From positions 39,304 to 103,303 of the IMG/VR virus record IMGVR_UViG_3300045988_148533: 64,000 bases of DNA; one strand, written 5' to 3'. Below the pieces are notes generated by a model. It did not search any database, had not been told where the DNA came from, and saw only the letters and a list, made by a program, of their open reading frames with translations. A program made the position numbers and the translations under genes. Origin of the DNA: a virus. Positions 18,464 through 56,500 of this stretch are shown piece after piece (position 1 is the first letter of the stretch; each line of letters starts with the position of its first letter).

Positions 18464-18465
18464 TT

Positions 18466-20046: not shown

Positions 20047-20477
20047 TCAAATGTTATCCCGCTGTACTTTCCACGCAGCACTACACCGCAGCAGTCCTTC
20101 ATTTCAAGCACAGCGACATATTTTCCAGTGTTATAGTGTATTCTACCGTACTCAGACAGCACCCCCTCAGCCTCCTCACGACTGTTCGCACGTACAATCA
20201 CCTCCACCGCTGCACCCTTGGGAGAAGTATTCACATAGCCTCGGTAGTATCCGTAGCCGTCCTCCATGTCGGCCAGAGGCAGTCCAGCAACGTCCGTGAA
20301 TTTAGTAGGGGTAAAGGAATCAGGGGTGGCGTCAGCATGGGGTATTGCAGTACCCATTTCAGCTGCCATTGACACAAAGCGACCCCACAGTCGGCAGGCA
20401 TCCTCAGGGGTGGAGGCCTCAACGTACCACCACCCCTCGGGATTCAAAAATGTATAGAATGTTCTGCTGCTATTCAT
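20043..20477 (-). CDS. hypothetical protein (start trimmed to MNSSRTF)
   Basis: The ATG at 20475-20477 gives an 8-nt overlap with the upstream gene. Confidence 0.5.
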   Translation of the reverse strand: MNSSRTFYTFLNPEGWWYVEASTPEDACRLWGRFVSMAAEMGTAIPHADATPDSFTPTKFTDVAGLPLADMEDGYGYYRGYVNTSPKGAAVEVIVRANSREEAEGVLSEYGRIHYNTGKYVAVLEMKDCCGVVLRGKYSGITFE

Positions 20478-20691
20478 CGTCCTCAGTTCTTGGTCTCCGC
20501 TTGAACATCGTAACGTCCTCCACACCCACGTACCACCACTCCGTCCTCGTGCCTACCTTCAGTCGTGTGGGAACTTCCTGTCGTGGGGGGTATGTCTCCA
20601 GCACCACTCCGAGAGTATTCTCGGCAAAGTAGTGACCGCTGCCGTTGTGGCGTATGCGAACGATGTCCCCCTTGCGTATTATCTTCTTCAT
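20470..20691 (-). CDS. hypothetical small protein (SH3/KOW-like look)
   Basis: 73-aa ORF directly downstream of groEL. It begins KGDIVRIRHNGSGHYF. Confidence 0.45.
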   Translation of the reverse strand: MKKIIRKGDIVRIRHNGSGHYFAENTLGVVLETYPPRQEVPTRLKVGTRTEWWYVGVEDVTMFKRRPRTEDDE

Positions 20692-20694
20692 AGG

Positions 20695-22275: not shown

Positions 22276-22309
22276 GGGCTTTAATGATTTTATAATGATG
22301 ATACAATAA

Positions 22310-22340
22310 ACGTCTCCCCATTTGGTGAACAGGGAGACGT
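22310..22340 (-). terminator. stem-loop between nrdJ and groEL
   Basis: ACGTCTCCC pairs with GGGAGACGT (9 bp) around a 13-nt loop. In minus sense it is followed by TTTATTGTATC. Confidence 0.5.
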
Positions 22341-22347
22341 CACTGCA

Positions 22348-32651: not shown

Positions 32652-32659
32652 ATCCGAGG

Positions 32660-32702
32660 CAAATATAGTCAATAATTACGATTACTCCAAGAAAATTCTC
32701 GA
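32660..32702 (-). promoter_or_regulatory. promoter cassette copy placed 8 nt from the ATG
   Basis: The minus strand reads GAGAATTTTCTTGG-N19-TATATTTGCCTCGGAT followed by ATG. Confidence 0.55.
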
Positions 32703-40802: not shown

Positions 40803-42824
40803 TTACATTAACGCAAATATCAGCATTCGTGTTGTCATATCAGCACGAATTATGTTCACACCTTTCTTGCTGTCGTTGGACAGTGAACCATTAATTAGAA
40901 TAATGTTGCTCTTAGCCTTTTTCACGAACTCCTGAAGCCTGTCATAATCCCCTCCAAATATCAGGACTTCTATGAACTCATAGTTGCTTTCAAGCGTCAT
41001 CTTGCAGAATGTCTTAGGGGCTGTTCTACGACCACCCTTTGTCGTCTTAACCTCAACATCAGCCACATAACCACCCACAACAACCATTCCTTCTCCAGCC
41101 TTGACTTTCCGAGAGGTATCATTGCACTGCTCCACCGTCACATAGGAATACTCATCTGGGAAGCTACCTCTGTTATTCTCATACAGCCTATCATACCTGA
41201 AGAACGCGAACCCAGAAAGCTGCTTCTGCATAAGTCGCCACCACCACCCATCCTCACGATGCACGTATGCACCATTGAGGAGAGGGTCACTGTCATCAAT
41301 CTTAATCCTGTTCTTCTCAAAATACCTTCGCAGCAGAGACACCCTTTCCCGTACATCGGTAATGTTCTCTATGCTGTCAAACGCACCGCTCAGAATGAGG
41401 TTCTTAATTACTCGGCTGTTCACTGCCGTACCCTTCCAGTTATGGCGACTGACAAAGTCCTCAATTGACCAGTACTGCCCATTCTCATCTCTCTCCTTGA
41501 GTATCTGGTCAGCAGCCTTGTCGGCTACCTGTTTAACACCCATAATTGACCAATATAAAGACTGTGTCTTAAAGTCTATCACAACATTCTTAGTAGAGAT
41601 GTTAATATCCACAGGTTTCACTTCACACACGCCTGTCTTATTAATCTCAGCAATATAGCGTGGATAGTCATCATCCGTAGCATACTTAAAGGCCACACTC
41701 CAGTACTCAATAGGATAATGAACTTTCAGCCACTGAGATATATACCCTGTAATTGCATAGGCAGCTGCGTGACTCCGATTAAATAGGTAGAGGGATGCTT
41801 TATCAATAGCTTCCCACACACTCTCAGCATAATCATGGCTGACGCCAAAATGCTCCATATAATATGGGGTGAACCTCTCATGATACTGATGCAGTGCCTC
41901 ATATTTCTTCTTCACCATCGCCTTACGCACATCATCAGCCTCAACCAATGACAAACCTCCTAAAACCTTACACAACTCCATAACAGACTCCTGATATATC
42001 ACAAGGCCAAATGTCTTCTCAAGCACTTTTTCAGCACCCACCCAATATTTCACCTTACTCGGGTCTGCCTTACGAATAATATAATCCTCATGGAATCCAT
42101 TCTCCATTGCTCCAGGACGATATAGGGAAATGGCAGCTATCAGGTCTTCAATGTTGCGTGGCTGCATCTGCTTACAGTATCCAGTCAACCCTCTACTGCC
42201 AAAGTGGAAATTATCCTCATTCCAGCCGTTGCAGAAATACCTGTACACCTCTCTATCATCAAGAGGTGTGCTGTATATATCCACGTCCACACCCTCATTC
42301 TCCTTTATTAAGGTAATCATCTCCTGAAACTTATCCAGCTGCTTCACACCCAGAATATCCTGTTTCAAGAATCCAGCACTGTCCATCTCACCACCTTCCC
42401 ATTCGCTGACATATTCCTCACCCTGTTTTCTGATTGGAACCCAGTGGAACATATCGTGTTCCTTAGGAAAAATCATCGTAGCACAGGCATGAATGGACTG
42501 TGCCTTGGGGGCAGGCATAAGCAGCATCACCTCATTCACTATATCAGGGTGCTCTGTCACGAATTTCTTAACATTCTCATCCGCACAGGCTATCTTGAAC
42601 AGGTCTTCCGGCTTACGGTCACTAACATCAAATACTTTCATCATCTCATTCACCGTCTGGAATTCCAACCCGTATATTCTGGACATGTCCTTAATGGCCG
42701 CTCGCAGTTGCAGTGCGCTGTACGTACCCACGGAACATACTCTACTCCACCCGTATCGTTCTTCCATATATTTCTTCACCCGAGGTCTATCAACCGAGGG
42801 GAAGTCAACATCGATTTCACTTCG
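40803..42824 (-). CDS. dnaE: DNA polymerase III alpha subunit, exon 2 (catalytic DxD motif to C-terminus); 5-prime boundary approximate
   Basis: The frame is open from 42833 and reads WWGRSEIDVDFPSVDRPRVKKYMEERYG. EIDVDF corresponds to the PDxDxDF catalytic aspartates, yet it lies upstream of the first possible start (GTG at 42779). The remainder is co-linear with DnaE fingers and OB domains. Confidence 0.75.
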   Translation of the reverse strand, partial: RSEIDVDFPSVDRPRVKKYMEERYGWSRVCSVGTYSALQLRAAIKDMSRIYGLEFQTVNEMMKVFDVSDRKPEDLFKIACADENVKKFVTEHPDIVNEVMLLMPAPKAQSIHACATMIFPKEHDMFHWVPIRKQGEEYVSEWEGGEMDSAGFLKQDILGVKQLDKFQEMITLIKENEGVDVDIYSTPLDDREVYRYFCNGWNEDNFHFGSRGLTGYCKQMQPRNIEDLIAAISLYRPGAMENGFHEDYIIRKADPSKVKYWVGAEKVLEKTFGLVIYQESVMELCKVLGGLSLVEADDVRKAMVKKKYEALHQYHERFTPYYMEHFGVSHDYAESVWEAIDKASLYLFNRSHAAAYAITGYISQWLKVHYPIEYWSVAFKYATDDDYPRYIAEINKTGVCEVKPVDINISTKNVVIDFKTQSLYWSIMGVKQVADKAADQILKERDENGQYWSIEDFVSRHNWKGTAVNSRVIKNLILSGAFDSIENITDVRERVSLLRRYFEKNRIKIDDSDPLLNGAYVHREDGWWWRLMQKQLSGFAFFRYDRLYENNRGSFPDEYSYVTVEQCNDTSRKVKAGEGMVVVGGYVADVEVKTTKGGRRTAPKTFCKMTLESNYEFIEVLIFGGDYDRLQEFVKKAKSNIILINGSLSNDSKKGVNIIRADMTTRMLIFALM

Positions 42825-43917
42825 CCCCCACCATTACTGATGGGGGCATAACATCAGGCAGGGATACCGGAACGAATCCCTGCCTGAACTCCTTTTCAAT
42901 TTTTACTATTTTCGACATACTTAAAAAATTTACCTATCTGCCCTGAATATAACCCCATTTCCTTCATACCATTAGAATCATACCCCTGTTTCCAAAGCTG
43001 AACCATGCGGTATGCACCATAATATTTGGAGTCACACTCATTTAATATATAACGTTCTATCTCCTTTTGCGTAGACAATTTTCTGTCCGAAATTAAATAT
43101 CTATATTTACGAATTTTCTTCAACCCATACATTCCAAGAAAATCCGCTTCACGCATATAACTGTAAAAATTACATTCCCCTGTCCATAAATCATACACCC
43201 AACATGATTTCGCCTTCACATTTTTACCGCCCTTGCTTTTACCATTCTCCCTTCTCTTAATGGAAAGATTTTTCTTTTGTTCATCAGTCCATCTACGACC
43301 ATAATTAGGATTGGTCTCACCCTCAAAACGCGGAGGAAGCCCACCTCCCACCATCATATTTAAAACATCTGGTCGAGAAATAAAGGCCTCATCCACAATC
43401 CTCGCTTCGGACTCTAAAGCATCCTTAATGGAATGAAAATAACAAATAATCCTCTTTTTAAAATTCAAGTACCCATATTGTAGCAATGCTTTTCTAAATT
43501 TCGTTTCCTTCTCCTTATGACGTTTATATAAAACACCGCTTTTCCTTATTAAACACCCATTCCCTATATAAGTGTCAAATTCCGGGTGTAACCCCTTATA
43601 AACCCTGACACCAATATAAATATCATTAGTTATTACACACTTGGTTTCGTACAAATAAACCACGCGACGACCACCCAAATCAACGGGTATTTCAGAATAA
43701 TTAATACACTTGCTTAAATAGTCCATAATTCAATAAATTTAAGCAAACACTAAAGTCAAAATCAATAAGCAAGCAATTCGTCATTGACTTTAAAATCCTT
43801 TGCCTTGGCAATTATCTTATTTCCACCCCTGAACAAAACAAGTTCTTTATTTTCATCAAATTCCAAGATTCTGCCATTATCAAGAGTAATTTTAACAATA
43901 TTCTGCTTACGTACATA
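42825..43917 (-). mobile_element. intron-like insertion (probable group I intron) carrying a GIY-YIG homing endonuclease; boundaries +/- ~10 nt
   Basis: - It separates FERFLNKGRVG (exon 1) from SEIDVDF (exon 2), which are contiguous in bacterial DnaE.
- Candidate junctions obey the rule that the exon ends in U and the intron ends in G.
- Two strong hairpins occupy the 3-prime 70 nt. Confidence 0.6.
42896..43726 (-). CDS. GIY-YIG homing endonuclease (I-TevI-like, NUMOD-type linker)
   Basis: - VVYLYETKCVITNDIYIGV supplies GIY-N11-YIG.
- The mid-section block is KFRKALLQYGYLNF...ESEARIV.
- NPNYGRRWTDEQKKNLS is NUMOD3-like.
- The gene is visibly AT-rich. Confidence 0.8.
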   Translation of the reverse strand: MDYLSKCINYSEIPVDLGGRRVVYLYETKCVITNDIYIGVRVYKGLHPEFDTYIGNGCLIRKSGVLYKRHKEKETKFRKALLQYGYLNFKKRIICYFHSIKDALESEARIVDEAFISRPDVLNMMVGGGLPPRFEGETNPNYGRRWTDEQKKNLSIKRRENGKSKGGKNVKAKSCWVYDLWTGECNFYSYMREADFLGMYGLKKIRKYRYLISDRKLSTQKEIERYILNECDSKYYGAYRMVQLWKQGYDSNGMKEMGLYSGQIGKFFKYVENSKN

Positions 43918-45372
43918 ACCAACTCGGCCCTTATTCAAGAACCTTTCAAACAGCAGCCCATACTCCAGAGGGTCAAGTTTTGTAATCCCTATAAGATAGG
44001 AAATAAGACATCCTCCAGCACTGCCCCTACTTATACCTGTCAATATGCCGTTTTCATGACACCAATTGACAATGTCTCGAGTTATTAGGAAGTAGTCAAT
44101 TACATTACCGAACTTAATCACGTCTATTTCCCTCTCTAATCGCTCCAATACGACATCTTCACCCCACCTGTCAACCAACTCAGGATGAGCAGCCAGACCT
44201 TCCTCTATGAGGCCTAAAAACATCTCCTCATTGGTTGTGTACTTAGCAGCCTCATCAGGCTTCATCTCGTACTTAGGAAGATGCCTGTTGGCTGTGTCTA
44301 TCGTAAAGTCACACCCATCCGCAATGTCATTCAACAGCTGCATTGACTCGAGAAACAACTCTGCACCCACCTCTTCTTCAGAGAATAACTGCAAGAATTC
44401 CTCATACACAGCCTCATTTGACTTAAAATACTGATTATCACTTGCATACCCCATTCTGCCTGCAATACGATGCAGCCTATCCGGAATATCCGCATATTCA
44501 GCATCTATGTACCATGCATCACTAAACACCAGAGGCACAAGATTAGTGTCATAGAAGAATTTCTTAAGGTTCTTCAAGTACCACTCATCATGCCTCTCAT
44601 CACTGTAAGCACACGTGTCAAGCTGATAGAAAGCTGTATCAATATTCGCCTTACGAAATTCTTCGTAATCAAGTGTCTTAGGGTCAAGAATAACAGTAAT
44701 ATCATCATTGTTTCCTACAATTTCCCTAAATCTGTCAAGTGCCACCCACCCTGAATTGACACAGTTAATCTCAGTGTTGATTGTTAAAAGGGTCTGCCAC
44801 CCTTCAAAATTTCGGGCATAGACTTTCACTACAAAACGCACATCACTGTCAATGTCATACACGGTACACCCCATCCCGATGATGGGTTTAATGCCGAACT
44901 TCTGACATTCCATCTGAAATTTTAAAGCCCCTGCAAGAGAATTAACTTCACAGACACCCAGATTCCTTACCCCAAGAAACTTAGCCTTGCGACACCAATC
45001 CGTGTAAGTACCGCTTCCTGAAAGAATCTCATACTGTCCATGAACCCCCAAAAAAGTGTCCGTAGGAAGAGGAAAGGTACTTTCACCGAGGTATTTCAGC
45101 CTGTTCAACTTGACATCATTCTCCTGCCCCCTGTCCAGCCAGTACCACACCCCTCCGAACCTATACACGTACCTGTCGGCAAGTGTTTCATTATCCTCAT
45201 GTGGTTCAGTGTTGTATGGCTTGCCTATAAAGCAAAAGCCGTCATCAAACAGTGAACCGTCATCGGCAGGCACATACAGCTCATACGTCCTGTCCCCTAT
45301 TTCCACAACGGCATCAGACACCTCTGTGTAGGCTATACCATTTTCCTTGAGATATGCTATCAGTTCTTCCAT
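43918..45372 (-). CDS. dnaE: DNA polymerase III alpha subunit, exon 1 (PHP + palm N-part); 3-prime boundary approximate
   Basis: GISRGSAGGCLISYLIGITKLDPLEYGLLFERFLN matches the conserved DnaE palm block. The track ORF reads 51 codons further into the insertion before its stop at 43762. Confidence 0.75.
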
Positions 45373-46016
45373 CTGTACATTTCTACTCTTGCCTGAATAA
45401 TATCCGTAACATCATCACCGTCATGACGGCCTATCCCAATCAGTGACTGAGCCAGACGCTCACTCTCATGATTGTTAATCTCATAAGCATCAGAATGATA
45501 GTCACACAGTATAATCTGTGCCTCCTTACCTGTTTCAGCTGCTACCCTGAACATCTCCTTAGCTTCATATATGAAGCGTAGGCTCCCGAAGAGTATGTCA
45601 CAGTTATCACGCTCAACCTCAGGCATTTTGGCAAACTTAGCAAGTGCTCTGTCCGCTGCCGTTCTCGCCCAGACATCATCGCCTGCAAGATGCTTTATCT
45701 CTTCACCGACACGCTGCAACAGCTCTCTGCCTGTAACGGATACTGAAGCCAGAGAGCCTCCGCTGCAGAAGTCGTATGGCTTGTGTGGGAGGTAAACAGT
45801 ACTGCGCATCTTCTTCCACATAGCATATTCCTGACTGAGAGTATTCACAGGCATTCTATTACCTGTGATGACGAAATACACGAAATCTCTTATTGCATCA
45901 GAAAAATCCACCTCTATAACAGAACGACCCTCAATAGCAGCCTTCTGCCTGTAAAGATTGGCGGTGTATGACTTACCACCGCCAATCACACCTATGAATC
46001 CATAAACCTTACTCAT
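45360..46016 (-). CDS. deoxynucleoside monophosphate kinase-like P-loop protein
   Basis: Walker A GVIGGGKSYT, with RELLQRVGEEIKHLAGDDVW and NNHESE blocks resembling T4 gp1-type dNMP kinase. Confidence 0.5.
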   Translation of the reverse strand: MSKVYGFIGVIGGGKSYTANLYRQKAAIEGRSVIEVDFSDAIRDFVYFVITGNRMPVNTLSQEYAMWKKMRSTVYLPHKPYDFCSGGSLASVSVTGRELLQRVGEEIKHLAGDDVWARTAADRALAKFAKMPEVERDNCDILFGSLRFIYEAKEMFRVAAETGKEAQIILCDYHSDAYEINNHESERLAQSLIGIGRHDGDDVTDIIQARVEMYRWKN

Positions 46017-46542
46017 ACATCGAAATATATGCAAGAATACGTGGAAAATCCTTACCGTGCCTGTGAATCAGCTTCATACACGTATCACGTGTCTCAAGTA
46101 TTTCCTTACTGCGATTACCATACGTTATCTCCTTGATACAGAAAATCAGCAGTTCAAGATAGTCGCAGCACTTAAACAGCGCATACTGTCTCTCATTCAA
46201 TGCAGCCTTGATATTCTCATCAGAATATTTCTCGAGATGAGTGCCCTGTGTCAATTCCTTCTCTATAACAGCCCATGCCCTCTTAGTTTCCTCACTGAAA
46301 TTCTTAACAGGATACGTCAGGTCGCCTGTAATGGCTTCCACGGCATCATGCTGAAGCACAATGTCAAACTCGTGCATGGTATATGCCACATCCTCAATTG
46401 AGGCCCACCACTTGAAAAGAATGGCGGTACGATAGCAGTGCTCCGCTATATTGTAGTGCTGATGGTGAAATGTACCTGTGAATCTTTCCACGTTGGACAT
46501 CCTGTACAGATTCTGTATGTCCTCTATAATATTACGCATCAT
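46009..46542 (-). CDS. HD-domain 5-prime-deoxynucleotidase (YfbR-like)
   Basis: NIAEHCYRTA ... LQHDAVEAITGDLTYPVK gives the H...HD...D pattern. Confidence 0.7.
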   Translation of the reverse strand: MMRNIIEDIQNLYRMSNVERFTGTFHHQHYNIAEHCYRTAILFKWWASIEDVAYTMHEFDIVLQHDAVEAITGDLTYPVKNFSEETKRAWAVIEKELTQGTHLEKYSDENIKAALNERQYALFKCCDYLELLIFCIKEITYGNRSKEILETRDTCMKLIHRHGKDFPRILAYISMYE

Positions 46543-47639
46543 AGTCCAAACACCTCATTAAGAATAGGGTTCTCAAATCTTTCCTGTGCAACAGGACATC
46601 CAAAGTGGTGAACCTTTTCCCACTTCCGAGCAAATACACGTATCCAGTCACGCTCCAGAGCGGACTTCGCCTTTTCAAGAGTATATTCCTTCATGCAGTC
46701 AACACCTTCTCTGAACAGTCTTTCCTGAGTGGCAATGCTAACCATAGCGTCATCAAAGTCAAACAGACTATTGAACGCCTTAGGATAGTAATAGCTGTGA
46801 ACAGGGAATTCCTCTCCATAGTACTTATTAGCGACATCCTCAACGAGAGGCACAAAATCCTCATACACGTGCAGATTGTCTGCCTTGTGATAGTACACAC
46901 CCACAGGCACACCCAGAATATTCGCAACATATTCCTGCATTAGGGTGAAGTTGAAAACATTCACTGCACTAAATCCCCATATCAGGTCATTGCTGCGAAT
47001 GTCCACATAACAGTTCAGCTTACCGTTCACAATCATAAAGTGAATGGAACGTGTACAGGGTGTATCCTTGGTAGGGAGAACCTGAAGATTCGTGTCAACA
47101 GGTTTCAGCCTAAACAGAAAGTCATCTGCAATGGGGTTGTGAATTGTGATGCACGCCTCACGAGTGGTTATATCCTCCTTGAACTTTTCCAAGACAAATC
47201 TAAGCTGGTCAACTCTACCCTTTGCAAGCAGCGGTGACTGCCAATCCTCCATGTACTGATTACCTGTCATTACATCGCTGTCCTTATACTGCATTACTCT
47301 CTTGAATGAATCATAGGCTCTTATGCGAGGGCCGTATCCAGCTCTCATATACTTGCCGTCATCCGAGAAATTATTCAAATTAGTGACATAGGCAGCAGGC
47401 ATTGTCATGCTGTTACTGCCTAATGCAAGCCACAGAGACTCCACCCATCCGAGTGTCCTGTTCCACTTGCGCTCTGGAACAGTAACATATCTCTCACATG
47501 GATTGGTTATAGCTATCATCACAGGCTCTGGAAACTCATAGCACCTGTGGCCACGCCTCATCTGTTCAATGCCGTGTTCCTTCAGTTCACGACAGAGGCG
47601 TATAAATGCCTGATTAAGACTGTCAAATTCAAAATACAT
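46539..47639 (-). CDS. divergent thymidylate synthase (ThyA) family enzyme; candidate dUMP hydroxymethylase or thymidylate synthase
   Basis: TPCTRSIHFMIVNGKLNCYVDIRSNDLIWGFSAVNVFNFTLMQEYVA aligns by eye to the ThyA block PCH..QFYV.DGKLSCQLYQRSxDxxLGxPFNIASY. The catalytic Cys and the uracil-reading Asn are retained. There is an extra C-terminal extension of about 90 aa. Confidence 0.65.
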   Translation of the reverse strand: MYFEFDSLNQAFIRLCRELKEHGIEQMRRGHRCYEFPEPVMIAITNPCERYVTVPERKWNRTLGWVESLWLALGSNSMTMPAAYVTNLNNFSDDGKYMRAGYGPRIRAYDSFKRVMQYKDSDVMTGNQYMEDWQSPLLAKGRVDQLRFVLEKFKEDITTREACITIHNPIADDFLFRLKPVDTNLQVLPTKDTPCTRSIHFMIVNGKLNCYVDIRSNDLIWGFSAVNVFNFTLMQEYVANILGVPVGVYYHKADNLHVYEDFVPLVEDVANKYYGEEFPVHSYYYPKAFNSLFDFDDAMVSIATQERLFREGVDCMKEYTLEKAKSALERDWIRVFARKWEKVHHFGCPVAQERFENPILNEVFGL

Positions 47640-47641
47640 AA

Positions 47642-48682
47642 CTAAATATTTTTAAGTAATACACTATTTCTATCGGGAAGTTTACATTTACCCCATTTGG
47701 GAGGGAAAACGTACTCCAAGCCACCATGAGGAGAATACATTCTCTTTATCCTCTCCTTGCTACCTGACTTGAAGGTAGCTCCAAGCCCCTTTGCATACTT
47801 GCTAATCTCACAGAAGCAGTTCTGCAAGTTGGTAAGCGTTGGAACAGGTTCCCACGGCAGAGGATGCCACTCCATGCCTGACTCTCTGCAGAAATCGTGC
47901 ATAAGTTCCTCAAAATTACTCTGAAGCCACCTTATTGCACCGACATAGTCATACTTCTTACCGTTAGCACCCTCAAATACCCACCGAATCCCCCTAAGAC
48001 TTCCTGGCCCTGTAACCACGAAATCATTCTCTGTAAAGTTGAATATAGAGGAGTAATTAAGGTCTATCGCGTACTGCTGCGCTATGAAATCACCATATAT
48101 GCGCATCGAGCGAAATTCCCTATATAGAGCCTCAAAGGAATCCGCCCTCAAAAAGTCCCACAGCCTGTCATTTCCAAAAATTTCATTCTGAAAAACTCTG
48201 AAATATGCCCTGTGCTTACTCAGCCCCTCCATCCAGCTGTACTCCGGCAGCTGATAGAAATATCCGGTAACAATGTATGCACTGTTGTATATGTTCACAC
48301 CCTCTTCAAGCAGTGTGTCCACATAGTCAGCCATCGCCTCAAGATAAGTACCTGTGTTCACATTATAGCGTATATCCCCGAATTCCTTTTCAAGGAGCTG
48401 CCACGTCTCAATCTTGTTAAAATGCTTGAACAACAGCACTCTAAAGAATATGTCCTCAGGGGTGTACTGCCTGCCATTATACAGAACATTCCGAATAAGG
48501 TACTGACTGACCCTGTCAAGACACCTGTAAACATTCGTAAAGGAATACTCACAGAGTATAGGGTCTGATGTCCACGGCTGCTCATCACCCCTGTACTTGT
48601 GCCAGAAAATATTCATCCGTTCACACATCCAGTACAGCAGCCATGTTAGATTCTCTTTATTCGGGATTATTCTGCTCTGCAT
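47642..48682 (-). CDS. aGPT-Pplase-like protein (putative DNA base hypermodification enzyme); start uncertain
   Basis: The motifs PWTSDPIL, FTNVYRCLDRVSQ and GDFIAQQYAIDLNYS...GPGSLRGI match my recollection of the alpha-glutamyl/putrescinyl thymine pyrophosphorylase family. This is not verified by search. Confidence 0.45.
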   Translation of the reverse strand: MQSRIIPNKENLTWLLYWMCERMNIFWHKYRGDEQPWTSDPILCEYSFTNVYRCLDRVSQYLIRNVLYNGRQYTPEDIFFRVLLFKHFNKIETWQLLEKEFGDIRYNVNTGTYLEAMADYVDTLLEEGVNIYNSAYIVTGYFYQLPEYSWMEGLSKHRAYFRVFQNEIFGNDRLWDFLRADSFEALYREFRSMRIYGDFIAQQYAIDLNYSSIFNFTENDFVVTGPGSLRGIRWVFEGANGKKYDYVGAIRWLQSNFEELMHDFCRESGMEWHPLPWEPVPTLTNLQNCFCEISKYAKGLGATFKSGSKERIKRMYSPHGGLEYVFPPKWGKCKLPDRNSVLLKNI

Positions 48683-49397
48683 ACCTATTCTGATTGATAT
48701 AGTTACCCTTATTAACGTATTCTCTAAATTCCCCACAAATTTCGGGAACACCAAAGAATTCAAAGATGCTGCACCCCAAATCCCACACAGGAGAACTGTA
48801 CGCTTCCTCCTTAATCACCACATTTGCCCCCTCAGCATTCAGCAGTGCAGCTTCCTCTCGTGACTTAGCAATGTCACTCTCAAAGCCACTTCTCTTGTGC
48901 CACATTGCGTCCCCCTTCGGAGGTTTTCCCGAACGGTACACCACCCTGTCATAGTACTCCTCATGTTCCTTTTCTGTAAAGTCATAGCGCACATATAGGA
49001 TGTTCATGAATTCACACACGGCTATAAGTTCCATCGGTCTAAGCCTCCATGAGACTGACGTGCCTGCCCCCTCCAGAAGAACATTCATCCTCTTCATGCC
49101 TACTTCCTTTAGGAAGTCTGACACACCTGCCGAATTGACAAATCTGCTTGTAACACTGTCCAGCCCCTGCCACCGCCTTACACCTTGATTTTCATAGAAC
49201 TTGCCTATCACAATTAAGTTGAATTCCGGAACATATACCCCCACTTCCTTCTCCTTGCCCTCAGAATTGACCCATCTGTACGGCTGAAATTCCACACCAA
49301 TGCTTTCCAGAAAATCAAGAAAGCAGTAAACCCGAGTGGATTTACCGCTTCCAGACGTACCCTTGACAAGGACTATGGTTCCGTAGTCCTTTATCAT
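48657..49397 (-). CDS. stand-alone P-loop kinase (candidate 5-hmdU DNA kinase)
   Basis: Walker A VKGTSGSGKST and Walker B-like MNVLLEGAG. The functional call rests on genomic context only. Confidence 0.4.
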   Translation of the reverse strand: MIKDYGTIVLVKGTSGSGKSTRVYCFLDFLESIGVEFQPYRWVNSEGKEKEVGVYVPEFNLIVIGKFYENQGVRRWQGLDSVTSRFVNSAGVSDFLKEVGMKRMNVLLEGAGTSVSWRLRPMELIAVCEFMNILYVRYDFTEKEHEEYYDRVVYRSGKPPKGDAMWHKRSGFESDIAKSREEAALLNAEGANVVIKEEAYSSPVWDLGCSIFEFFGVPEICGEFREYVNKGNYINQNRYAEQNNPE

Positions 49398-49401
49398 GAT
49401 G

Positions 49402-49992
49402 CTATTTCTTTTTTATGAGTGAAACAGATGTAACACGCTTCTTGACAGGCTTTGCATCGCCAATCTTGACCATGCACTTCTCCTTGCCGTCGCTGCTGCG
49501 ATACAGCCTTACAACTTCACCCTTTTCGTCAGTACCGGACAGCATGACATTGCATCCGACTTTCAGTCCGGGATTCTCGGTAGACTCCTCAATGTCCTCA
49601 CGCTTTGTAGCCACCTTTTCCTTCTTGGGCTTAGGAGCAGGCTTCGGAGCCATGTTCTTGTCTTTCTTGGTAGGTGACTTGCGCTTTGCCTGCCTCTCCT
49701 CGAATTCCTTCTCAGCCTCCTCAAGACGAGCCTGTTCCTCTTCAGAAATCGGGCTCTCCTCTTCGGGCTGAGGGTCAGGCTCAGGTTCCTTCTTGGATTT
49801 AGGTGCAGGCTTTTTCTTAGGTGCAGGCTTCGCTGCTTCCGATGCACTTTCGCCGAGTTTCTTGTCCAGAATGGACTGTGCTACTTTCTTTTCAGTTTCA
49901 GAGGATTCCTCGCTTTCTACGATAGCTTGCAGTTCCTCAATGCTTTTCCTGTTGTAGGAAAATTTCAGTGCTAATTCTTTGTTGTTTGCCAT
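49402..49992 (-). CDS. K/P/E-rich histone-H1-like low-complexity protein with C-terminal SH3/KOW-like module
   Basis: AAKPAPKKKPAPKSKKEPEP and MAPKPAPKPKKEK repeats. The C-terminus reads VGCNVMLSGTDEKGEVVRLYRSSDGKEKCMVKIGD. Confidence 0.5.
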   Translation of the reverse strand: MANNKELALKFSYNRKSIEELQAIVESEESSETEKKVAQSILDKKLGESASEAAKPAPKKKPAPKSKKEPEPDPQPEEESPISEEEQARLEEAEKEFEERQAKRKSPTKKDKNMAPKPAPKPKKEKVATKREDIEESTENPGLKVGCNVMLSGTDEKGEVVRLYRSSDGKEKCMVKIGDAKPVKKRVTSVSLIKKK

Positions 49993-50012
49993 AATCGTTT
50001 TTGTTTGTGATG

Positions 50013-50044
50013 CAAAATTAATACTTGTTATTTAATCTACCAAA
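50013..50044 (-). promoter_or_regulatory. Bacteroidota-type promoter (TTTG-N20-TAATTTTG)
   Basis: The minus strand reads AAATTTGGTAGATTAAATAACAAGTATTAATTTTGCATCACAAACAAAAACG followed by ATG. Confidence 0.6.
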
Positions 50045-50052
50045 TTTTTCTC

Positions 50053-50496
50053 TTATTTTCCCGTATGACCAAAACCACCCTCACCTCTTTCAGAACTGTC
50101 AAGCATGCTCTCACTGTCAACACTAATCATCGAGACATCATGTGTTTTCACTATCACCATCTGAGCTATTCTGTCATGATTGTGGACAACAAACGGCTCT
50201 TCTCCGTGATTCATCAGGATGACTCCAACTTCTCCACGGTAATCTGCATCAATAGTCCCAGGAGAATTAAGCACAGTAATTCCATGCTTTAAGGCAAGGC
50301 CACTTCGAGGTCTTATCTGGGCCTCAACACCTTCCGGCAGCTGCATCTTGATTCCTGTCGGAATCAATGACCTTTCATGAGGCATTATCATAATATTCTC
50401 ATTAAGACAGGCATAAATATCATATCCTGCCGAGAGCCTTGTCTGCTTCATTGGCATGATAGCCCCCTCCTTGAGGTAAATCTTTACTACTTCCAT
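50053..50496 (-). CDS. dut: dUTP pyrophosphatase
   Basis: Motifs SAGYDIYA, RSGLALKHGI, GTIDADYRGEV and ERGEGGFGHTG. Confidence 0.9.
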   Translation of the reverse strand: MEVVKIYLKEGAIMPMKQTRLSAGYDIYACLNENIMIMPHERSLIPTGIKMQLPEGVEAQIRPRSGLALKHGITVLNSPGTIDADYRGEVGVILMNHGEEPFVVHNHDRIAQMVIVKTHDVSMISVDSESMLDSSERGEGGFGHTGK

Positions 50497-53556: not shown

Positions 53557-56500
53557 TCATACTGTATCAATTTTAATCTGTACATTACCCTCTCTGAGGT
53601 AATTAATAGCCATATAGGATGATGATAACGTATCATCGTGGCCGCTTATACTCTCCAATGTTCCCTTGTCACTTCTAAAGGCAACGGAATTAAATTCACC
53701 GAAAAGCATATTTATCTTGTCCCTGTCATCATGATGATACGGTACTTTTATCACACCTCTCTCAAAAAGAGCAGCCAATGACGGCCACCCACTCCGCAAA
53801 TCCTTCTTATTGTTAGTGGTTGTAAATCTTATAATATTCTTGACACCACCGTCTATCGCCAGACTACCCAGCACCGACTGGAAGTTATTGTTCTCCACCA
53901 CAACAGCATTCGGCCTGAATATCGTATTCAAAGTGATAATCCTCTGCACCTGTTCATCATACGGCATACCCTTTGCCCTGTATAGATGCAGAAGATAATA
54001 AATACCCATCCTATCCCTGCCCCACACTGTGAAACAAGTATAGTCAGCACCGACAGCACCGCTTATTCCAAAATCCACTCCAACAGCTACTGCATCCAGT
54101 TTGTAGGGGAAAGACTCTTGATTGTTCACAAGGTGAACATTCTCCATTCCAATTGTGCTTCGCTTTAGAATGTCCCACGGAAATATTGTGCTATCGTCCG
54201 ATATCGGCACCACCAGATACTCCCTCGAAAATACCAAGGAGCCTGCGGATTCCCTCTCAGCCATCAACTTCTCGAACGTAAATCTATCCGGAGCCAACAA
54301 CCTACCATCAGGAAAAACAGCAGGGTATTCAAATACCTTGAACTTACCGTCTTTCTTCAAGGAATCATAAAGGTCAGTCGATTGGTACGGGGTATTATGA
54401 GAAATGATGCCATTTGAAAGAAATGTATGAGTTTTACCCATTGTAAAATCAACCGTTATACTCCTACCCTTTCCAATTGACTTCACCCTCAAAAAAGTGT
54501 ACCCTCTTTCGGCATTAGCTTTCAATTCAAATGCTTCCTCACTTACGACTCCAGATGCAGCCACCCATTTTCCAACATTTTGAATATCCCTTAACTTATG
54601 AATACTCACTTTCTTTTTACCCCACATCTTCAACCTCTCCAAACCAAAAGTTTTTCTATCAGAAATCGTAAGGGGTTTTTGCTTTCTAACAGCCTTAATC
54701 AATCTACTCTGATACGGTACACGCAACAAGGAAAGACTATTACGGTATTTAAAAGTGTGCCATTTATCACCCTTTCCGGAATTAGGAAATCCAATTTCCT
54801 TCATAAAAAGGTTAATCATCTCTTCACTGTCAATCCTAAGCAGATACCCCATTCTGTTGGACTTAACCCTTTCAGAACTCTGACATTTCTTAACCTTAAC
54901 TGAAGACAGTATTCCAAGATTGAGTAGTGCAAACTGTATCTGACGTATTAACTCCATGCTGACAGAAAAACAGCTTATATTTCCATCAATTGAAAAACAT
55001 CCATCACCATCAAAATAACCCGACAAAAACTTTGTAATTTCTCTCTTTCCAGCATGAAATATCTTTTCAGGAATCACCTTAGTATGGCTATACCACCCCA
55101 ATTCATATCCCAAAGAAGCCCATAATTCACGCTTATCAGCTTTATAATATCTTAAATGAATTCCATCATAAACACCGTTCACCTCCCTCCATCCTCTATC
55201 AATTAAATACTGCCTAATACCAGCATTTCTCTTTGCAATAGTTATTCTATCACTGGATAAATGCCCATCGGCAATACTTAATCCTATTTGATACAATTCA
55301 TCATCACTTATATTAAGAGACTCTCCCCATATATTTGCACCCACTTTCATAGCCACAAAATCACCGATACAAATATCTTCAGCCTTCTTCCATTTATAAC
55401 AGCCGTCATCACCACATACCATAATAGGATGAATCATGCTCGTTTCCAGCGTAAACCCTTTTTCCAACTGAATCAACCTTGTCTCCGTTTCACCATTTAT
55501 ATAATATTTTTCAGCCAGCTCTAATTCCTGACCATTATAAATGAATTTATTGAAAGAATAATACCCCTTAGGACTTGTGAGTGGTACAGGGCAAAGTTCT
55601 CCTATCATACGAATACCCCTATCCGTAAGTACAAATGTATCCGGTGAAACACAACCGTCCACAATGTTATACCCATAAGGTTCCACAATAGGAGAGATGG
55701 AACCTTTGAAAATATTTTCCAGCTTCTGCCTCTGTTCCAAGGAGTAGATACTACTCTCATCAGGGAGGTCATCACTAACAGCTGCTCCAACGTGCAGACC
55801 TCGAATAAATCCTCCTGCTCCTCTGAGGTGTAGCTTAGTACCATTCTCACCCTCAACTGACTTCTCTGCCAGAACCGCCTTGCCGTTAGGGTTTATGACA
55901 TGACATAGAATGTCATTAGCCTTTATCTCCTCAACTATCTTATCCACGTGTTCCTTTCCAAGAGTTTCCGTATTGGTTATAATACACGTTTCCTGTCGAT
56001 TCTTATTATCAGGGGTATCAGGCTTCATATAGTTTGGTCTGCGATAGCTGTACAGCCTCCACAGCGGGAAGGCGAAGCAGAACTCATAGGAGTTGTGAAC
56101 CACTGTACCGTCCTCCAACTGAAATAGATGGTCTCCATCCGTCATGAACCCATAATAGGATTCCTTTCCAATAGGCTCTATAACTATATCCATCTTCTCC
56201 AGTACAGGCGTATCAGGAGAAAACACTCTGTACCCCTTGAACCTCTTACGCCTGAGGGGTGTCAATGAATAATACCTCTCAGCCTCAATCTCGACATATT
56301 CCTTCTTCTTAGTGTCAAACAGGCATAGGATGTGTGGTGCGTTTACAGCATACGCCATACCTCCTTCCTGCTCTATACGGTACATATCACTGAATCCTAT
56401 GTGCCTCGTCAATACCTTTCTTGGGGTATAGTCTATGCCCATCACCTCCATCCCAGGATATATATCTTCAACATTCTTGACAGTAAAGTCTGCCATCAAT

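What the first reader, a model, noticed from the sequence alone, without database searches (positions are those of the whole stretch)
45360..50496. Candidate thymidine-hypermodification block: ThyA-family enzyme + aGPT-Pplase-like protein + stand-alone P-loop kinase, flanked by HD nucleotidase, dNMP kinase and dUTPase
**Seen in the sequence**
- Six co-directional, overlapping genes.
- The 366-aa protein (46539..47639) keeps the ThyA catalytic block (PC...RSNDLIWG...N) but is highly divergent and has a ~90-aa C-terminal extension.
- The next gene (47642..48682) carries PWTSDPIL, FTNVYRCLDR and GDFIAQQYAIDLNYS...GPGSLRGI. I recall these as hallmarks of the alpha-glutamyl/putrescinyl-thymine pyrophosphorylase (aGPT-Pplase) family.
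- The next gene (48657..49397) is a small P-loop kinase with no other domain.

**Established knowledge**
In phages SP10, PhiW-14, ViI and M6, thymidine hypermodification uses three steps. A ThyA-like dUMP hydroxymethylase acts first, a 5-hmdU DNA kinase second, and aGPT-Pplase third. dUTPase and dTMP/dTTP-degrading enzymes bias the nucleotide pool.

**Inference**
This Bacteroidota phage may replace T with a 5-hmdU-derived base. No PLP or radical-SAM tailoring enzyme is adjacent, so the final adduct is unknown and could be new.
Basis: partly seen in the sequence, partly recalled or inferred. Interest (0 to 1): 0.8.

Follow-up and report, generated by a model that had tools for sequence, protein, structure and literature searches.

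The report
Phage thymine-modification cluster lacking known transferase
A roughly 103-kb gut phage carries the genes to replace thymine with 5-hydroxymethyluracil and phosphorylate it in DNA, but it has only an uncharacterised enzyme where the known final-step transferase should be, so its DNA base is unknown and the cluster is a clean test case for that enzyme.

Summary
Window 45360-50496 (minus strand) holds seven co-directional genes:
- dUTPase
- a conserved K/E-rich protein
- a P-loop kinase of Pfam family HMUD2 ("5-hmdU DNA kinase 2", the family of ViI gp243)
- a 346-aa protein that hits PF18723 at 1e-72
- a ThyA-like enzyme closest to the SPO1 gp29 and M6 gp58 dUMP hydroxymethylases
- a YfbR-like HD nucleotidase
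- a dNMP kinase

PF18723, now named "HMUDK_hel", is the family GenBank annotates as aGPT-Pplase clade 1. That clade is clade 2 (Pfam ADDT).

I found no ADDT, PLP, radical-SAM, FAD, GNAT or glycosyltransferase gene in about 95% of the 103,182-bp genome.

The cluster is conserved at 47-64% identity in 25 IMG/VR relatives. In other relatives, the slot upstream of the clade-1 gene instead holds either sugar-activation and glycosyltransferase genes, or amidoligase/GNAT/GATase/ADDT genes.

Clade 1 has an invariant Cys-Glu pair and no assigned function in the papers I could read. Its most constant neighbour is the hydroxymethylase, in phages and in bacteria.

Verdict: a new variant of the known thymidine-hypermodification system, with the product unknown.

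The parts
50053..50496 (-). Trimeric-type dUTPase (147 aa). It supplies dUMP and removes dUTP. This is the first gene of the block.
   Evidence: Pfam dUTPase 2.2e-34; PHROG 135 5e-57. Conserved at this position in all relatives.
49402..49992 (-). K/E-rich 196-aa protein with a conserved C-terminal ~60-aa domain. Function unknown. It always lies just upstream of the modification genes.
   Evidence: No Pfam or PHROG hit. The C-terminal residues 131-192 are 60-73% identical in relatives. A similar K-rich protein lies just upstream of the clade-1 gene in the glycosyltransferase-cassette relative L023.
48657..49397 (-). P-loop kinase of the HMUD2 / 'Kinase2' type (246 aa). Predicted 5-hmdU DNA kinase that makes 5-phosphomethyl-dU in DNA.
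   Evidence: Pfam HMUD2 5.5e-20, 72 bits against a cut-off of 25. tblastn finds Ackermannviridae orf243-type genes (CBA120 orf243, 26%, 4e-7). Walker A, D80, E109-G110, R151, R155, G157-K158 and K178 are shared with M6 gp54 and CBA120 orf243. Activity of ViI gp243 and M6 gp54 is reported in PMC8989533.
47642..48682 (-). aGPT-Pplase clade 1 protein (Pfam PF18723 'HMUDK_hel', 346 aa). All-alpha, with an invariant Cys291-Glu292. Function not established. Proposed here to act on 5-PmdU or 5-hmdU in DNA.
   Evidence: Pfam 1.1e-72. Phage homologues are annotated aGPT-Pplase1. hhalign against M6 gp55 gives prob 98.9, E 2.6e-17. AF2 model pLDDT 93.4, pTM 0.91. Best structural match is SP10 gp186, a kinase/clade-1 fusion (E 1.6e-11, TMq 0.71). 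Invariant residues are listed.
46539..47639 (-). ThyA-superfamily pyrimidine hydroxymethylase, predicted dUMP hydroxymethylase (366 aa) with a C-terminal helical extension.
   Evidence: Pfam Thymidylat_synt 1.7e-16; PHROG 5131 2.9e-61. Best phage hits are SPO1 gp29 (33%, 6e-29) and Goe9/Goe10 'deoxyuridylate hydroxymethyltransferase'. M6 gp58 29%, 1e-29. Best PDB match is the CMP hydroxymethylase MilA at 1.8e-18, against thymidylate synthases at >=1.8e-8. C195, R215-S216, D218, N227 (= E. coli N177, uracil-specific), H257 and Y259 are kept. The TS W80/W83 segment is replaced by FSDDG and there is no TS C-terminus.
46009..46542 (-). HD-domain YfbR-like 5'-deoxynucleotidase (177 aa). Inferred to drain dTMP/dNMP from the pool.
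   Evidence: Pfam YfbR-like 6.4e-20, HD_3 2.3e-7. Syntenic with, and 24% identical to, the M6 gp59 HD protein (E 9.5e-7). Adjacent to the ThyA-like gene in relatives.
45360..46016 (-). dNMP kinase-like P-loop protein (218 aa from the ATG). Inferred to phosphorylate 5-hmdUMP.
   Evidence: PHROG 139 'deoxynucleoside monophosphate kinase' 1.6e-10. No Pfam hit. Conserved after the HD gene in relatives.

Best explanation
**What the block is**
It is a thymidine-replacement and modification module of a roughly 103-kb Bacteroidota-type myovirus.

**Pre-replicative steps (inferred from homology)**
- The dUTPase supplies dUMP.
- The ThyA-like enzyme hydroxymethylates dUMP to 5-hmdUMP.
- The HD nucleotidase depletes competing dTMP/dNMP.
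- The dNMP kinase starts the route to 5-hmdUTP.
- The phage PolIII-alpha-type polymerase then builds 5-hmdU DNA.

**Post-replicative steps**
- The HMUD2 kinase transfers one phosphate to the 5-hydroxymethyl group, giving 5-PmdU. This is inferred from family membership and conserved catalytic motifs.
- The clade-1 aGPT-Pplase, encoded in an overlapping gene directly downstream, is the enzyme that consumes 5-PmdU.
- My committed guess for its mechanism: it flips the base out, Cys291 attacks C6, and phosphate leaves to give the exocyclic C5 methylene known from clade-2 enzymes.
- That intermediate is then resolved without an ADDT enzyme. The product is either thymine (the unassigned polymer-level thymine-forming branch described for SP10 and PhiW-14) or a simple adduct from an abundant cellular nucleophile, as must happen in SP10, which has only a fused kinase/clade-1 protein.

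The chemistry of this last step and its product are inference, not shown.
For: - **Family assignments:**
- **Hydroxymethylase, not TS:**
- **Kinase:** its motifs are shared with validated 5-hmdU DNA kinases (PMC8989533).
- **Gene order:** the kinase-then-clade-1 order matches the N-to-C order of the SP10 gp186 fusion (PMC5889632 Table 3). SP10 gp186 is also the best structural match of the AF2 model.
- **Synteny with M6 gp54-gp55...gp58-gp59:**
- **Conservation:** the block is conserved at 47-64% identity in 25 IMG/VR relatives, always as two separate genes.
- **Likely active site in clade 1:** it has 21 invariant residues, including C291-E292 in QNCFCExxKY, plus R22, D56, N89, K156, Q203, D207 and K295. 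That pattern fits an active site rather than a mere DNA-binding surface.
- **Slot for the missing genes:** in the phage-like contig L040, an ADDT gene plus amidoligase, GNAT and GATase genes sit exactly between the kinase and the clade-1 gene. That is the junction where the two genes overlap by 26 nt in the window.
- **No other modification genes found:** no ADDT, aGPT-Pplase3, PLP, rSAM, FAD, GNAT or GT gene appears in about 97.7 of 103.2 kb.
- **hmU-only Bacillus phage records:** 88 have the ThyA-like gene but only 6 have clade 1, and Bacillus is not among the organisms listed for the kinase hits.
- **Fate of 5-hmdU elsewhere:** virion DNA of SP10, PhiW-14, M6 and ViI contains no 5-hmdU, which becomes either the hypermodified base or thymine (PMC8989533).
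Against: - No activity has been shown for any clade-1 protein. M6 gp55 and ViI gp160 were dispensable for adduct formation in vitro (PMC8989533).
- Clade 1 shows no significant profile similarity to clade 2. Foldseek did not retrieve PUGT 8Z2M/8Z2N from the PDB. Only a weak BFVD hit to an AADT-domain protein was found (E 0.04, TMq 0.37). Equivalence of C291 to the clade-2 catalytic Cys247 is therefore unproven.
- Clade 1 also occurs without any recognisable P-loop kinase. Examples are LuckyBarnes with TAGT glycosyltransferases, relatives L023-L027, L030 and L039 with a sugar-activation/GT cassette, and bacterial Nmad2 / clade 1 / ThyA-like operons. A phosphorylated substrate may therefore not be required.
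- Many ORFans in the genome have no family hit.
- About 5.5 kb of the genome was never seen.
Confidence: 0.5

Rival explanations
1. The pathway stops at 5-hmdU or 5-PmdU. The clade-1 protein is a non-catalytic DNA-binding or base-flipping subunit that targets the kinase, which is the reading implied by the Pfam name '5-hmdU DNA kinase, helical domain'. Virion DNA would carry 5-hmdU and/or phosphomethyl-dU.
For: - The clade-1 domain is fused to the kinase in SP10 gp186 (PMC5889632).
- Its gene overlaps the kinase gene in the window.
- Clade 1 was dispensable for adduct formation in vitro (PMC8989533).
- No downstream enzyme is encoded.
Against: - The SP10 kinase domain alone is active without the C-terminal domain (PMC8989533).
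- Clade 1 occurs widely without any kinase.
- An invariant Cys-Glu pair and many invariant polar residues suggest catalysis.
- 5-hmdU is absent from virions of the four characterised kinase-encoding phages (PMC8989533).
Confidence: 0.2
2. The clade-1 protein acts independently of the kinase as a glycosylase-like enzyme on DNA. It could excise or exchange misincorporated T/U, or protect or survey 5-hmdU. It would then be a partner of the hydroxymethylase rather than of the kinase.
For: - Its most constant neighbour is the ThyA-like gene. Of the best 80 bacterial loci, 46 also carry a ThyA-like gene (35 with Nmad2, 9 ThyA-like only, 2 with Nmad2 and rSAM), and only 1 carries a kinase.
- All 45 bacterial ThyA-like partners keep the uracil-type Asn.
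- The best, though non-significant, PDB fold hits are OGG-type HhH glycosylases (prob 0.2).
- The original prediction was a glycosylase-like HhH fold (PMC5889632, PMC8989533).
Against: - The PDB fold matches are not significant.
- The fusion to a kinase in SP10 and the tight kinase/clade-1 linkage in this phage family argue for consecutive steps.
Confidence: 0.15
3. This is the canonical pathway after all. A divergent amino-acid:DNA transferase and tailoring enzymes are encoded elsewhere, either in the unseen ~5.5 kb or among the ORFans. The cluster would then be an ordinary dispersed hypermodification system like that of ViI.
For: - In Ackermannviridae the genes are dispersed (PMC5889632).
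- Several 250-530-aa window proteins have no Pfam or PHROG hit.
- About 5% of the genome was not inspected.
Against: - Pfam ADDT readily detected the divergent homologue in L040 at 4.5e-19 but nothing in this genome.
- The unseen stretch lies between a giant repeat virion protein and the capsid module.
- In relatives the variable genes sit at one locus next to the clade-1 gene.
Confidence: 0.1
4. The ThyA-like protein is an ordinary thymidylate synthase, and the block is plain nucleotide metabolism with no base modification.
For: It hits Pfam Thymidylat_synt, and all the residues needed for dUMP binding and Cys catalysis are present.
Against: - It is much closer to SPO1 gp29, M6 gp58 and MilA than to any TS.
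- It lacks the TS W80/W83 segment and the TS C-terminus.
- It is flanked by two families known only from 5-hmdU systems.
Confidence: 0.03

Closest known systems
Pseudomonas phage M6 gp51-gp59 cluster (5-NedU; Lee et al. 2018, 2021)
   Same: - Same order: kinase (gp54), clade-1 aGPT-Pplase (gp55), ThyA-like hydroxymethylase (gp58), HD hydrolase (gp59).
- hhalign of the window clade-1 family against gp55 gives prob 98.9.
- ThyA-like is 29% identical to gp58 and HD is 24% identical to gp59.
   Different: - M6 also has gp51 (clade 2/ADDT glycine transferase), gp52 (PLP decarboxylase) and gp53 (rSAM isomerase). None of these is in this genome.
- The M6 kinase is the shorter gp54 type, while the window kinase is the HMUD2/'Kinase2' type.
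Bacillus phage SP10 gp186 (5-hmdU DNA kinase fused to a clade-1 domain; alpha-glutamylthymidine)
   Same: - Kinase followed by clade 1 with no clade-2 enzyme detected (PMC5889632 Table 3).
- It is the best structural match of the window model (E 1.6e-11, TMq 0.71).
   Different: - One fused 637-aa polypeptide in SP10, against two overlapping genes here. The genes are separate in all 25 relatives.
- SP10 also has an adjacent rSAM (gp185) and a second kinase (gp218).
- Sequence identity is only about 22%.
Ackermannviridae (ViI/CBA120): gp243 Kinase2, gp160 clade 1, gp247 ADDT, gp226 PLP (5-NeOmdU)
   Same: - The window kinase's homologues among cultured phages are the orf243/gp243 type.
- The clade-1 homologues are ViI-like genes annotated aGPT-Pplase1.
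   Different: - The genes are dispersed in ViI.
- ViI has a serine transferase and a decarboxylase that are absent here.
SPO1-type hmU phages (gp29 dUMP hydroxymethylase)
   Same: - The best sequence match of the ThyA-like enzyme, including the C-terminal extension.
- The same pool-biasing logic (PMC8989533 introduction).
   Different: Most Bacillus phage records with the ThyA-like gene lack the clade-1 gene (6 of 88). No Bacillus record is listed among the kinase hits.
Bacterial Nmad2 / clade 1 / ThyA-like operons (e.g. Alistipes, Prevotella, Paludibacter, Fibrobacter), some beside Thoeris-like TIR/SLOG genes
   Same: - The same adjacent clade-1 / ThyA-like gene pair.
- Clade 1 is 35-42% identical, and the ThyA-like proteins are about 35-40% identical in the loci examined (E 1e-63 to 1e-72).
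- The uracil-type Asn is kept.
   Different: - No kinase, dUTPase, HD or dNMP-kinase genes.
- An Nmad2 protein or a radical-SAM protein is present instead.
- Chromosomal, defence-island-like context. Function unknown.

Membership tests
dUMP hydroxymethylase (ThyA superfamily, SPO1 gp29 type) | Thymidylate-synthase fold or domain | tested here: met
   Pfam PF00303 1.7e-16, 60.6 bits against a cut-off of 24.3; PHROG 5131 2.9e-61.
dUMP hydroxymethylase (ThyA superfamily, SPO1 gp29 type) | Catalytic Cys, Arg-Ser-x-Asp, His/Tyr, and Asn (uracil) rather than Asp (cytosine) at the E. coli N177 position | tested here: met
   C195, R215-S216, D218, N227, H257 and Y259 are invariant in alignment A2 with E. 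coli ThyA, SPO1 gp29 and M6 gp58.
dUMP hydroxymethylase (ThyA superfamily, SPO1 gp29 type) | Closer to characterised hydroxymethylases than to thymidylate synthases, with loss of TS-specific folate-closure elements | tested here: met
   SPO1 gp29 6e-29; M6 gp58 1e-29; MilA 1.8e-18 against the best TS at 1.8e-8. E. coli WDEWAD (W80/W83) is replaced by FSDDG, and the TS C-terminus is replaced by a helical extension.
dUMP hydroxymethylase (ThyA superfamily, SPO1 gp29 type) | Produces 5-hmdUMP rather than dTMP | not testable with these tools
   Needs an enzyme assay or a thyA complementation test.
5-hmdU DNA kinase, type 2 (Pfam PF18747 HMUD2; ViI gp243) | Profile match above the curated threshold | tested here: met
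   5.5e-20, 72.2 bits against a cut-off of 25; residues 7-201 match profile positions 3-194 of 298.
5-hmdU DNA kinase, type 2 (Pfam PF18747 HMUD2; ViI gp243) | P-loop and other catalytic motifs shared with biochemically validated members | tested here: met
   G13...G18-K19-[ST], D80, E109-G110, R151, R155, G157-K158 and K178 are invariant with M6 gp54 and CBA120 orf243. Activity is reported in PMC8989533.
5-hmdU DNA kinase, type 2 (Pfam PF18747 HMUD2; ViI gp243) | Phosphorylates 5-hmdU in DNA | not testable with these tools
   Needs an assay on 5-hmdU DNA with ATP.
aGPT-Pplase clade 1 (Pfam PF18723, now 'HMUDK_hel') | Profile match, and homology to ViI gp160, M6 gp55, PhiW-14 gp72 and SP10 gp186C | tested here: met
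   Pfam 1.1e-72. tblastn finds genes annotated aGPT-Pplase1. hhalign against M6 gp55 gives prob 98.9. Foldseek finds SP10 gp186 and a PhiW-14 protein annotated as containing the 5-hmdU DNA kinase helical domain.
aGPT-Pplase clade 1 (Pfam PF18723, now 'HMUDK_hel') | All-alpha, HhH DNA-glycosylase-like fold | tested here: inconclusive
   The AF2 model is all-alpha with high confidence. PDB hits to OGG glycosylases are not significant (E 3.5, prob 0.2, TM 0.23-0.27).
Amino-acid:DNA transferase (aGPT-Pplase clade 2; Pfam PF18724 ADDT; PUGT 8Z2M) | Profile match to ADDT | tested here: not met
   The window protein hits only HMUDK_hel. hhalign against M6 gp51 gives prob 0.2, and against a five-member clade-2 alignment gives prob 0.07. 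No other ORF of the genome hits ADDT, although L040's homologue does at 4.5e-19.
Amino-acid:DNA transferase (aGPT-Pplase clade 2; Pfam PF18724 ADDT; PUGT 8Z2M) | Fold similarity to the solved clade-2 structures | tested here: inconclusive
   No clade-2 structure (PUGT) appears among the 32 PDB matches with E <= 10. There is a weak BFVD hit to an AADT-domain protein (E 0.04, prob 0.99, TMq 0.37).
Amino-acid:DNA transferase (aGPT-Pplase clade 2; Pfam PF18724 ADDT; PUGT 8Z2M) | Catalytic Cys with a nearby acidic residue near the C-terminus (Cys247 in PUGT and M6 gp51) | tested here: inconclusive
   Clade 1 has an invariant C291-E292 at a comparable position (QNCFCExxKY against ETxLCxWK). No significant alignment links the two.
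Complete thymidine-hypermodification pathway (Lee et al. 2021): hydroxymethylase + 5-HMUDK + ADDT (+ tailoring enzymes) | An ADDT transferase encoded in the genome | tested here: not met
   None in window ORFs. None in the precomputed Pfam lists for the rest of the 103,182-bp genome. About 5.5 kb was not seen.

The most novel reading that the evidence does not exclude
The clade-1 aGPT-Pplase (PF18723) is itself a Cys-dependent enzyme that resolves 5-phosphomethyl-dU in DNA without an ADDT partner. It would be either the long-unassigned activity that turns 5-hmdU back into thymine at the polymer level (known from SP10 and PhiW-14 labelling work), or a second, independent class of DNA group transferase that makes an undescribed base in gut Bacteroidota phages. 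In this phage family the slot next to it swaps between kinase, kinase+ADDT+tailoring, and sugar-activation/glycosyltransferase cassettes. That would make clade 1 the constant core of a diversifying hmU-modification locus, one also shared with bacterial Nmad2 / clade 1 / hydroxymethylase operons in defence-island-like contexts.
Probability: 0.3. Interest if true: 0.85.

Novelty: new variant of a known kind. Interest (0 to 1): 0.6.

Why it matters
Thymidine hypermodification protects phage DNA from restriction enzymes. It is also a source of enzymes that act on bases within DNA.

One family found in the characterised hypermodifying phages, clade-1 aGPT-Pplase, still has no assigned function in the literature I could read. 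That family had more than 7,500 matches in the protein search here. The enzyme that converts 5-hmdU to thymine in DNA is likewise unassigned.

This phage family offers a natural minimal context: hydroxymethylase, kinase and clade 1, with no known transferase or tailoring gene. Two synthesised genes plus 5-hmdU DNA would test the question directly.

It also shows that abundant gut Bacteroidota-type myoviruses probably carry non-canonical thymidines. That matters for virome sequencing bias, for restriction and defence evasion, and for host-range work.

Tried and rejected
**Nucleotide search**
- Megablast of the block against 50,697 phage records found nothing.

**Literature**
- A search for HMUDK_hel, PF18723 and HMUD2 returned only irrelevant papers.
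- Iyer et al. 2013 and the Witmer papers of 1981 and 1985 are not held. Statements about them come second-hand from PMC5889632 and PMC8989533.

**Is kinase + clade 1 a frameshifted SP10-like fusion?**
- Rejected. They are separate genes in all 25 relatives.

**Do the 0.8-0.95-kb inserts between kinase/clade 1 or clade 1/ThyA in relatives L016, L019, L020 and L021 encode a small transferase?**
- Rejected. They are GIY-YIG homing endonucleases.

**A redox CxC (C289/C291) mechanism**
- Rejected. C289 is Thr in L016 and L020 and is absent in M6 gp55.

**Sequence and structure comparisons**
- phmmer of clade 1 and of the kinase against PDB sequences gave nothing significant.
- Foldseek against the PDB gave nothing significant.
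- hhalign of clade 1 against clade 2 gave nothing significant.

**Annotating ORFans**
- A PHROG scan of ten unannotated window proteins gave no modification-related hit.

**Closing the genome**
- Two protein searches allowed walking to about 95% of the genome.
- Contigs of close relatives break inside a giant repeat protein, so about 5.5 kb stays unseen.

- In one search I scanned the C-terminal half of the Zeta-toxin-like protein instead of the N-terminal half, because it lies on the minus strand. The N-terminal ~220 aa remain unassigned.

Full report
**1. What is in the sequence**

All genes in this part of the window lie on the minus strand. Reading 5' to 3' on that strand, the block is:
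- dUTPase, 50496-50053
- a K/E-rich 196-aa protein, 49992-49402
- a 246-aa P-loop protein, 49397-48657
- a 346-aa protein, 48682-47642, whose start overlaps the previous gene by 26 nt
- a 366-aa ThyA-like protein, 47639-46539
- a 177-aa HD protein, 46542-46009
- a 218-aa P-loop protein, 46016-45360, which overlaps the start of a PolIII-alpha N-terminal gene

Pfam gives dUTPase 2.2e-34, HMUD2 ("5-hmdU DNA kinase 2") 5.5e-20, HMUDK_hel 1.1e-72, Thymidylat_synt 1.7e-16 and YfbR-like 6.4e-20. PHROGs adds dNMP kinase at 1.6e-10.

**2. The middle gene is aGPT-Pplase clade 1**

The current Pfam name "5-hmdU DNA kinase, helical domain" hides the older one. tblastn finds 318 phage records. Some of the matching genes in Ackermannviridae and other phages are annotated "aGPT-Pplase1 domain-containing protein" or [quoted passage not shown].

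Other links to known clade-1 proteins:
- The family profile matches M6 gp55 over its full length (hhalign prob 98.9, E 2.6e-17).
- A high-confidence AF2 model (pLDDT 93.4, pTM 0.91, all-alpha) is most similar to SP10 gp186, a 637-aa "5-hmdU DNA kinase". It is also similar to proteins from PhiW-14, phiRSL1 and Nodularia phages.
- Lee et al. 2018 (PMC5889632, Table 3) list SP10 gp186 as a kinase (N-terminal) / PPlase1 (C-terminal) fusion. That explains the Pfam name.

**3. It is not the clade with a known activity**

Lee et al. 2021 (PMC8989533) showed that clade 2 is the amino-acid/amine:DNA transferase. Its members include M6 gp51, ViI gp247, PhiW-14 gp109 and PaMx11 gp46, and Pfam now calls it ADDT (PF18724). 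It has an essential Cys and a neighbouring Glu. The structure paper (PMC11472151) identifies Cys247 as the catalytic residue. Reactions without M6 gp55 still made the adduct, so clade 1 was not needed in vitro.

I found no function for clade 1 in the papers I could read, which run up to August 2026.

Tests for a link between the window protein and clade 2:
- No significant profile similarity.
- No PDB sequence match.
- No significant PDB fold match, and the solved clade-2 structure was not retrieved.
- Only a weak BFVD hit to an AADT-domain protein (E 0.04, TMq 0.37).

Clade 1 nevertheless looks like an enzyme. In 37 sequences down to 37% identity, 21 positions are invariant. They include C291-E292 in the motif QNCFCExxKY, plus R22, D56, N89, K156, Q203, D207 and K295.

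**4. The other two core enzymes**

*ThyA-like protein.*
- It is closest to SPO1 gp29, the classical dUMP hydroxymethylase (33%, 6e-29). It is also close to SP8 and Goe9/Goe10 "deoxyuridylate hydroxymethyltransferase", Ackermannviridae genes and M6 gp58.
- Among solved structures, the CMP hydroxymethylase MilA scores 1.8e-18, while the best thymidylate synthase scores 1.8e-8.
- It keeps the catalytic Cys, Arg-Ser-x-Asp, His/Tyr and the uracil-specifying Asn.
- It replaces the TS W80/W83 segment with FSDDG, as in SPO1 gp29 and four of the other five hydroxymethylase-type sequences in the alignment (M6 gp58 has YSDDG).
- It has a helical extension instead of the TS C-terminus.

*Kinase.*
- Its cultured-phage homologues are the Ackermannviridae orf243/gp243 type. 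ViI gp243 was shown to phosphorylate 5-hmdU DNA (PMC8989533).
- It shares the Walker A motif, D80, E109-G110, R151, R155, G157-K158 and K178 with M6 gp54 and CBA120 orf243.

**5. Genome and relatives**

The window is part of a 69-kb Logan contig. The same phage occurs as 99.6-kb and 103.3-kb ENA contigs. The longer contig closes on itself with a 99-nt overlap, giving a genome of 103,182 bp.

It is a myovirus with portal, SU10-type capsid, tail tube and Baseplate_J genes. It carries a BACON-domain protein and Listeria-Bacteroides repeat proteins, which fits a Bacteroidota host.

I scanned window ORFs with Pfam and read the precomputed Pfam lists for the flanks. About 97.7 kb of the genome contains no ADDT, aGPT-Pplase3, PLP, radical-SAM, FAD-oxidoreductase, acetyltransferase, amidoligase or glycosyltransferase gene. 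About 5.5 kb was not seen. It lies between a giant repeat virion protein and the capsid module.

Twenty-five IMG/VR relatives (L007-L031) were recovered. Those closest to the window (clade 1 about 55-64% identical) keep the same order of dUTPase, K-rich protein, kinase, clade 1, ThyA-like, HD, dNMP kinase and PolIII-alpha, wherever the contig extends that far. The kinase and clade-1 genes are always separate. Extra DNA in some relatives encodes GIY-YIG homing endonucleases.

**6. The slot next to clade 1 is variable**

- In more distant relatives (L023-L027, L030, L039) the P-loop kinase is absent. Between the dUTPase and clade 1 lie a HAD-like/APH-like ~350-aa protein, a cytidylyltransferase-like protein, a GT1-type glycosyltransferase and, in L026, a TET-associated glycosyltransferase.
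- Brevibacterium phage LuckyBarnes has a ThyA fusion, two TAGT glycosyltransferases and clade 1.
- In contig L040, an HMUD2 kinase (42% identical) is followed by amidoligase-like, GNAT, GATase and ADDT genes, and then clade 1.
- In the window, the same junction is a 26-nt overlap.

The window therefore represents a stripped version of the cluster. Its closest characterised analogue is the fused SP10 gp186. SP10 has no recognised clade-2 gene (PMC5889632), yet it makes both alpha-glutamylthymidine and thymine from 5-hmdU in DNA (PMC8989533 introduction).

**7. Bacterial homologues**

A scan of GTDB genomes found 391 clade-1 homologues. Among the best 80 loci:
- 35 carry Nmad2 plus a ThyA-like gene
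- 10 carry Nmad2 plus a radical-SAM gene
- 9 carry a ThyA-like gene only
- 6 carry Nmad2 only
- 4 carry a radical-SAM gene only
- 2 carry Nmad2, a ThyA-like gene and a radical-SAM gene
- 1 (L040) carries a kinase
- 13 carry none of the query genes

The ThyA-like partners are about 35-40% identical to the window's in the loci examined, and all keep the uracil-type Asn.

Examples sit beside Thoeris-like TIR/SLOG or SIR2 genes and an integrase. A 2026 paper lists aGPT-Pplase and NMAD domains among predicted, unvalidated defence domains (PMC13092281).

The hydroxymethylase, not the kinase, is thus the most constant partner of clade 1.

**8. Interpretation**

*Well supported by homology.* The phage makes 5-hmdUTP and builds 5-hmdU DNA, and it encodes a kinase that should phosphorylate that base in DNA.

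*Inferred.* The clade-1 enzyme consumes 5-PmdU through Cys291 chemistry, and the product is thymine or a simple adduct.

*Rivals.*
- Clade 1 is a non-catalytic kinase partner, and 5-hmdU or 5-PmdU is the final base.
- Clade 1 is a glycosylase-like enzyme tied to the hydroxymethylase rather than the kinase.
- A transferase is hidden in the unseen DNA or among the ORFans.
- The ThyA-like protein is a plain thymidylate synthase, which I consider very unlikely.

**9. Verdict**

The finding is genuine and the family calls are right. The mechanistic claim for the last step goes beyond the evidence. The system is a new variant of the known thymidine-hypermodification pathway. Its value is as a minimal, conserved context for assigning a function to clade-1 aGPT-Pplase. 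Interest 0.6.

Noticed in passing
L023:6464-9992, L026:7679-9993, L030:7017-9921, L039:4046-6992: In more distant relatives of this phage family the P-loop kinase is replaced, at the same locus upstream of the clade-1 gene, by a different cassette. It holds a HAD-like + APH/choline-kinase-like ~350-aa protein, a cytidylyltransferase-like protein (6.6e-14) and a GT1-type glycosyltransferase. L026 also has a TET-associated glycosyltransferase (4.7e-11). This suggests glycosylated 5-hmdU in those phages.
   Followed up: partly
L040:1-7000 (Cloacimonadota MAG contig JAKQQL010000281.1): A phage-like contig with HD, dNMP kinase, HMUD2 kinase, Amidoligase_2 (weak), GNAT, GATase, ADDT (4.5e-19) and clade 1. 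This is a full hypermodification cluster. Its extra genes occupy exactly the kinase/clade-1 junction, which is a 26-nt overlap in the window.
   Followed up: partly
L060:2991-9741 (Alistipes MAG chromosome), L038:2464-10892, and 44 further ThyA-like-containing loci among L040-L119: A bacterial operon of Nmad2, clade-1 aGPT-Pplase and ThyA-like hydroxymethylase (or radical SAM). It is widespread in Bacteroidales and other phyla. In the two loci examined it sits beside Thoeris-like TIR/SLOG/SIR2 genes, and in L060 also beside an integrase. No kinase is present. Function unknown.
   Followed up: partly
L002 (Brevibacterium phage LuckyBarnes NC_047851.1, 31993-36008): A cultured actinophage with a 517-aa ThyA-like fusion protein, two TAGT-family glycosyltransferases and a clade-1 aGPT-Pplase homologue (34% identical to the window's). 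No kinase is annotated. It is a tractable system for testing clade 1.
   Followed up: partly
window 40803-45372: The PolIII-alpha-type polymerase is encoded in two ORFs: the PHP + N-terminal part at 43762-45372, and the finger/HhH part at 40803-42779. A 276-aa GIY-YIG-like gene (42896-43726) separates them. Most relatives lack that gene. Some relatives carry further ~0.8-kb interruptions inside the C-terminal part.
   Followed up: partly
window 53557-56913: A 1118-aa large terminase carries intein-type insertions: Hom_end_hint, LAGLIDADG_3 and Intein_splicing domains together with Terminase_6C.
   Followed up: no
window 31173-32672: A 499-aa protein with a C-terminal Zeta-toxin/AAA_33 P-loop kinase domain (1.2e-31) and an unassigned ~220-aa N-terminal half. 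This is a second stand-alone kinase in the replication module, and its substrate is unknown.
   Followed up: no
window 18002-24684: The phage encodes a GroEL-type chaperonin (20695-22275), a ferritin-like protein (18002-18463) and a divergent class II-like ribonucleotide reductase (22348-24684). An ECF-type sigma factor lies at 14140-14766.
   Followed up: no
L034:15470-16795 (outside the window, between portal and capsid genes): A 441-aa NUDIX-domain protein is encoded inside the head-morphogenesis module.
   Followed up: no
window 1-64000: G+C content is uneven: 0.50-0.55 in most of 4-12 kb and in 18-24 kb, against 0.40-0.46 in most of 30-64 kb. GC skew is negative in nearly every 2-kb bin, consistent with one-strand coding.
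   Followed up: no
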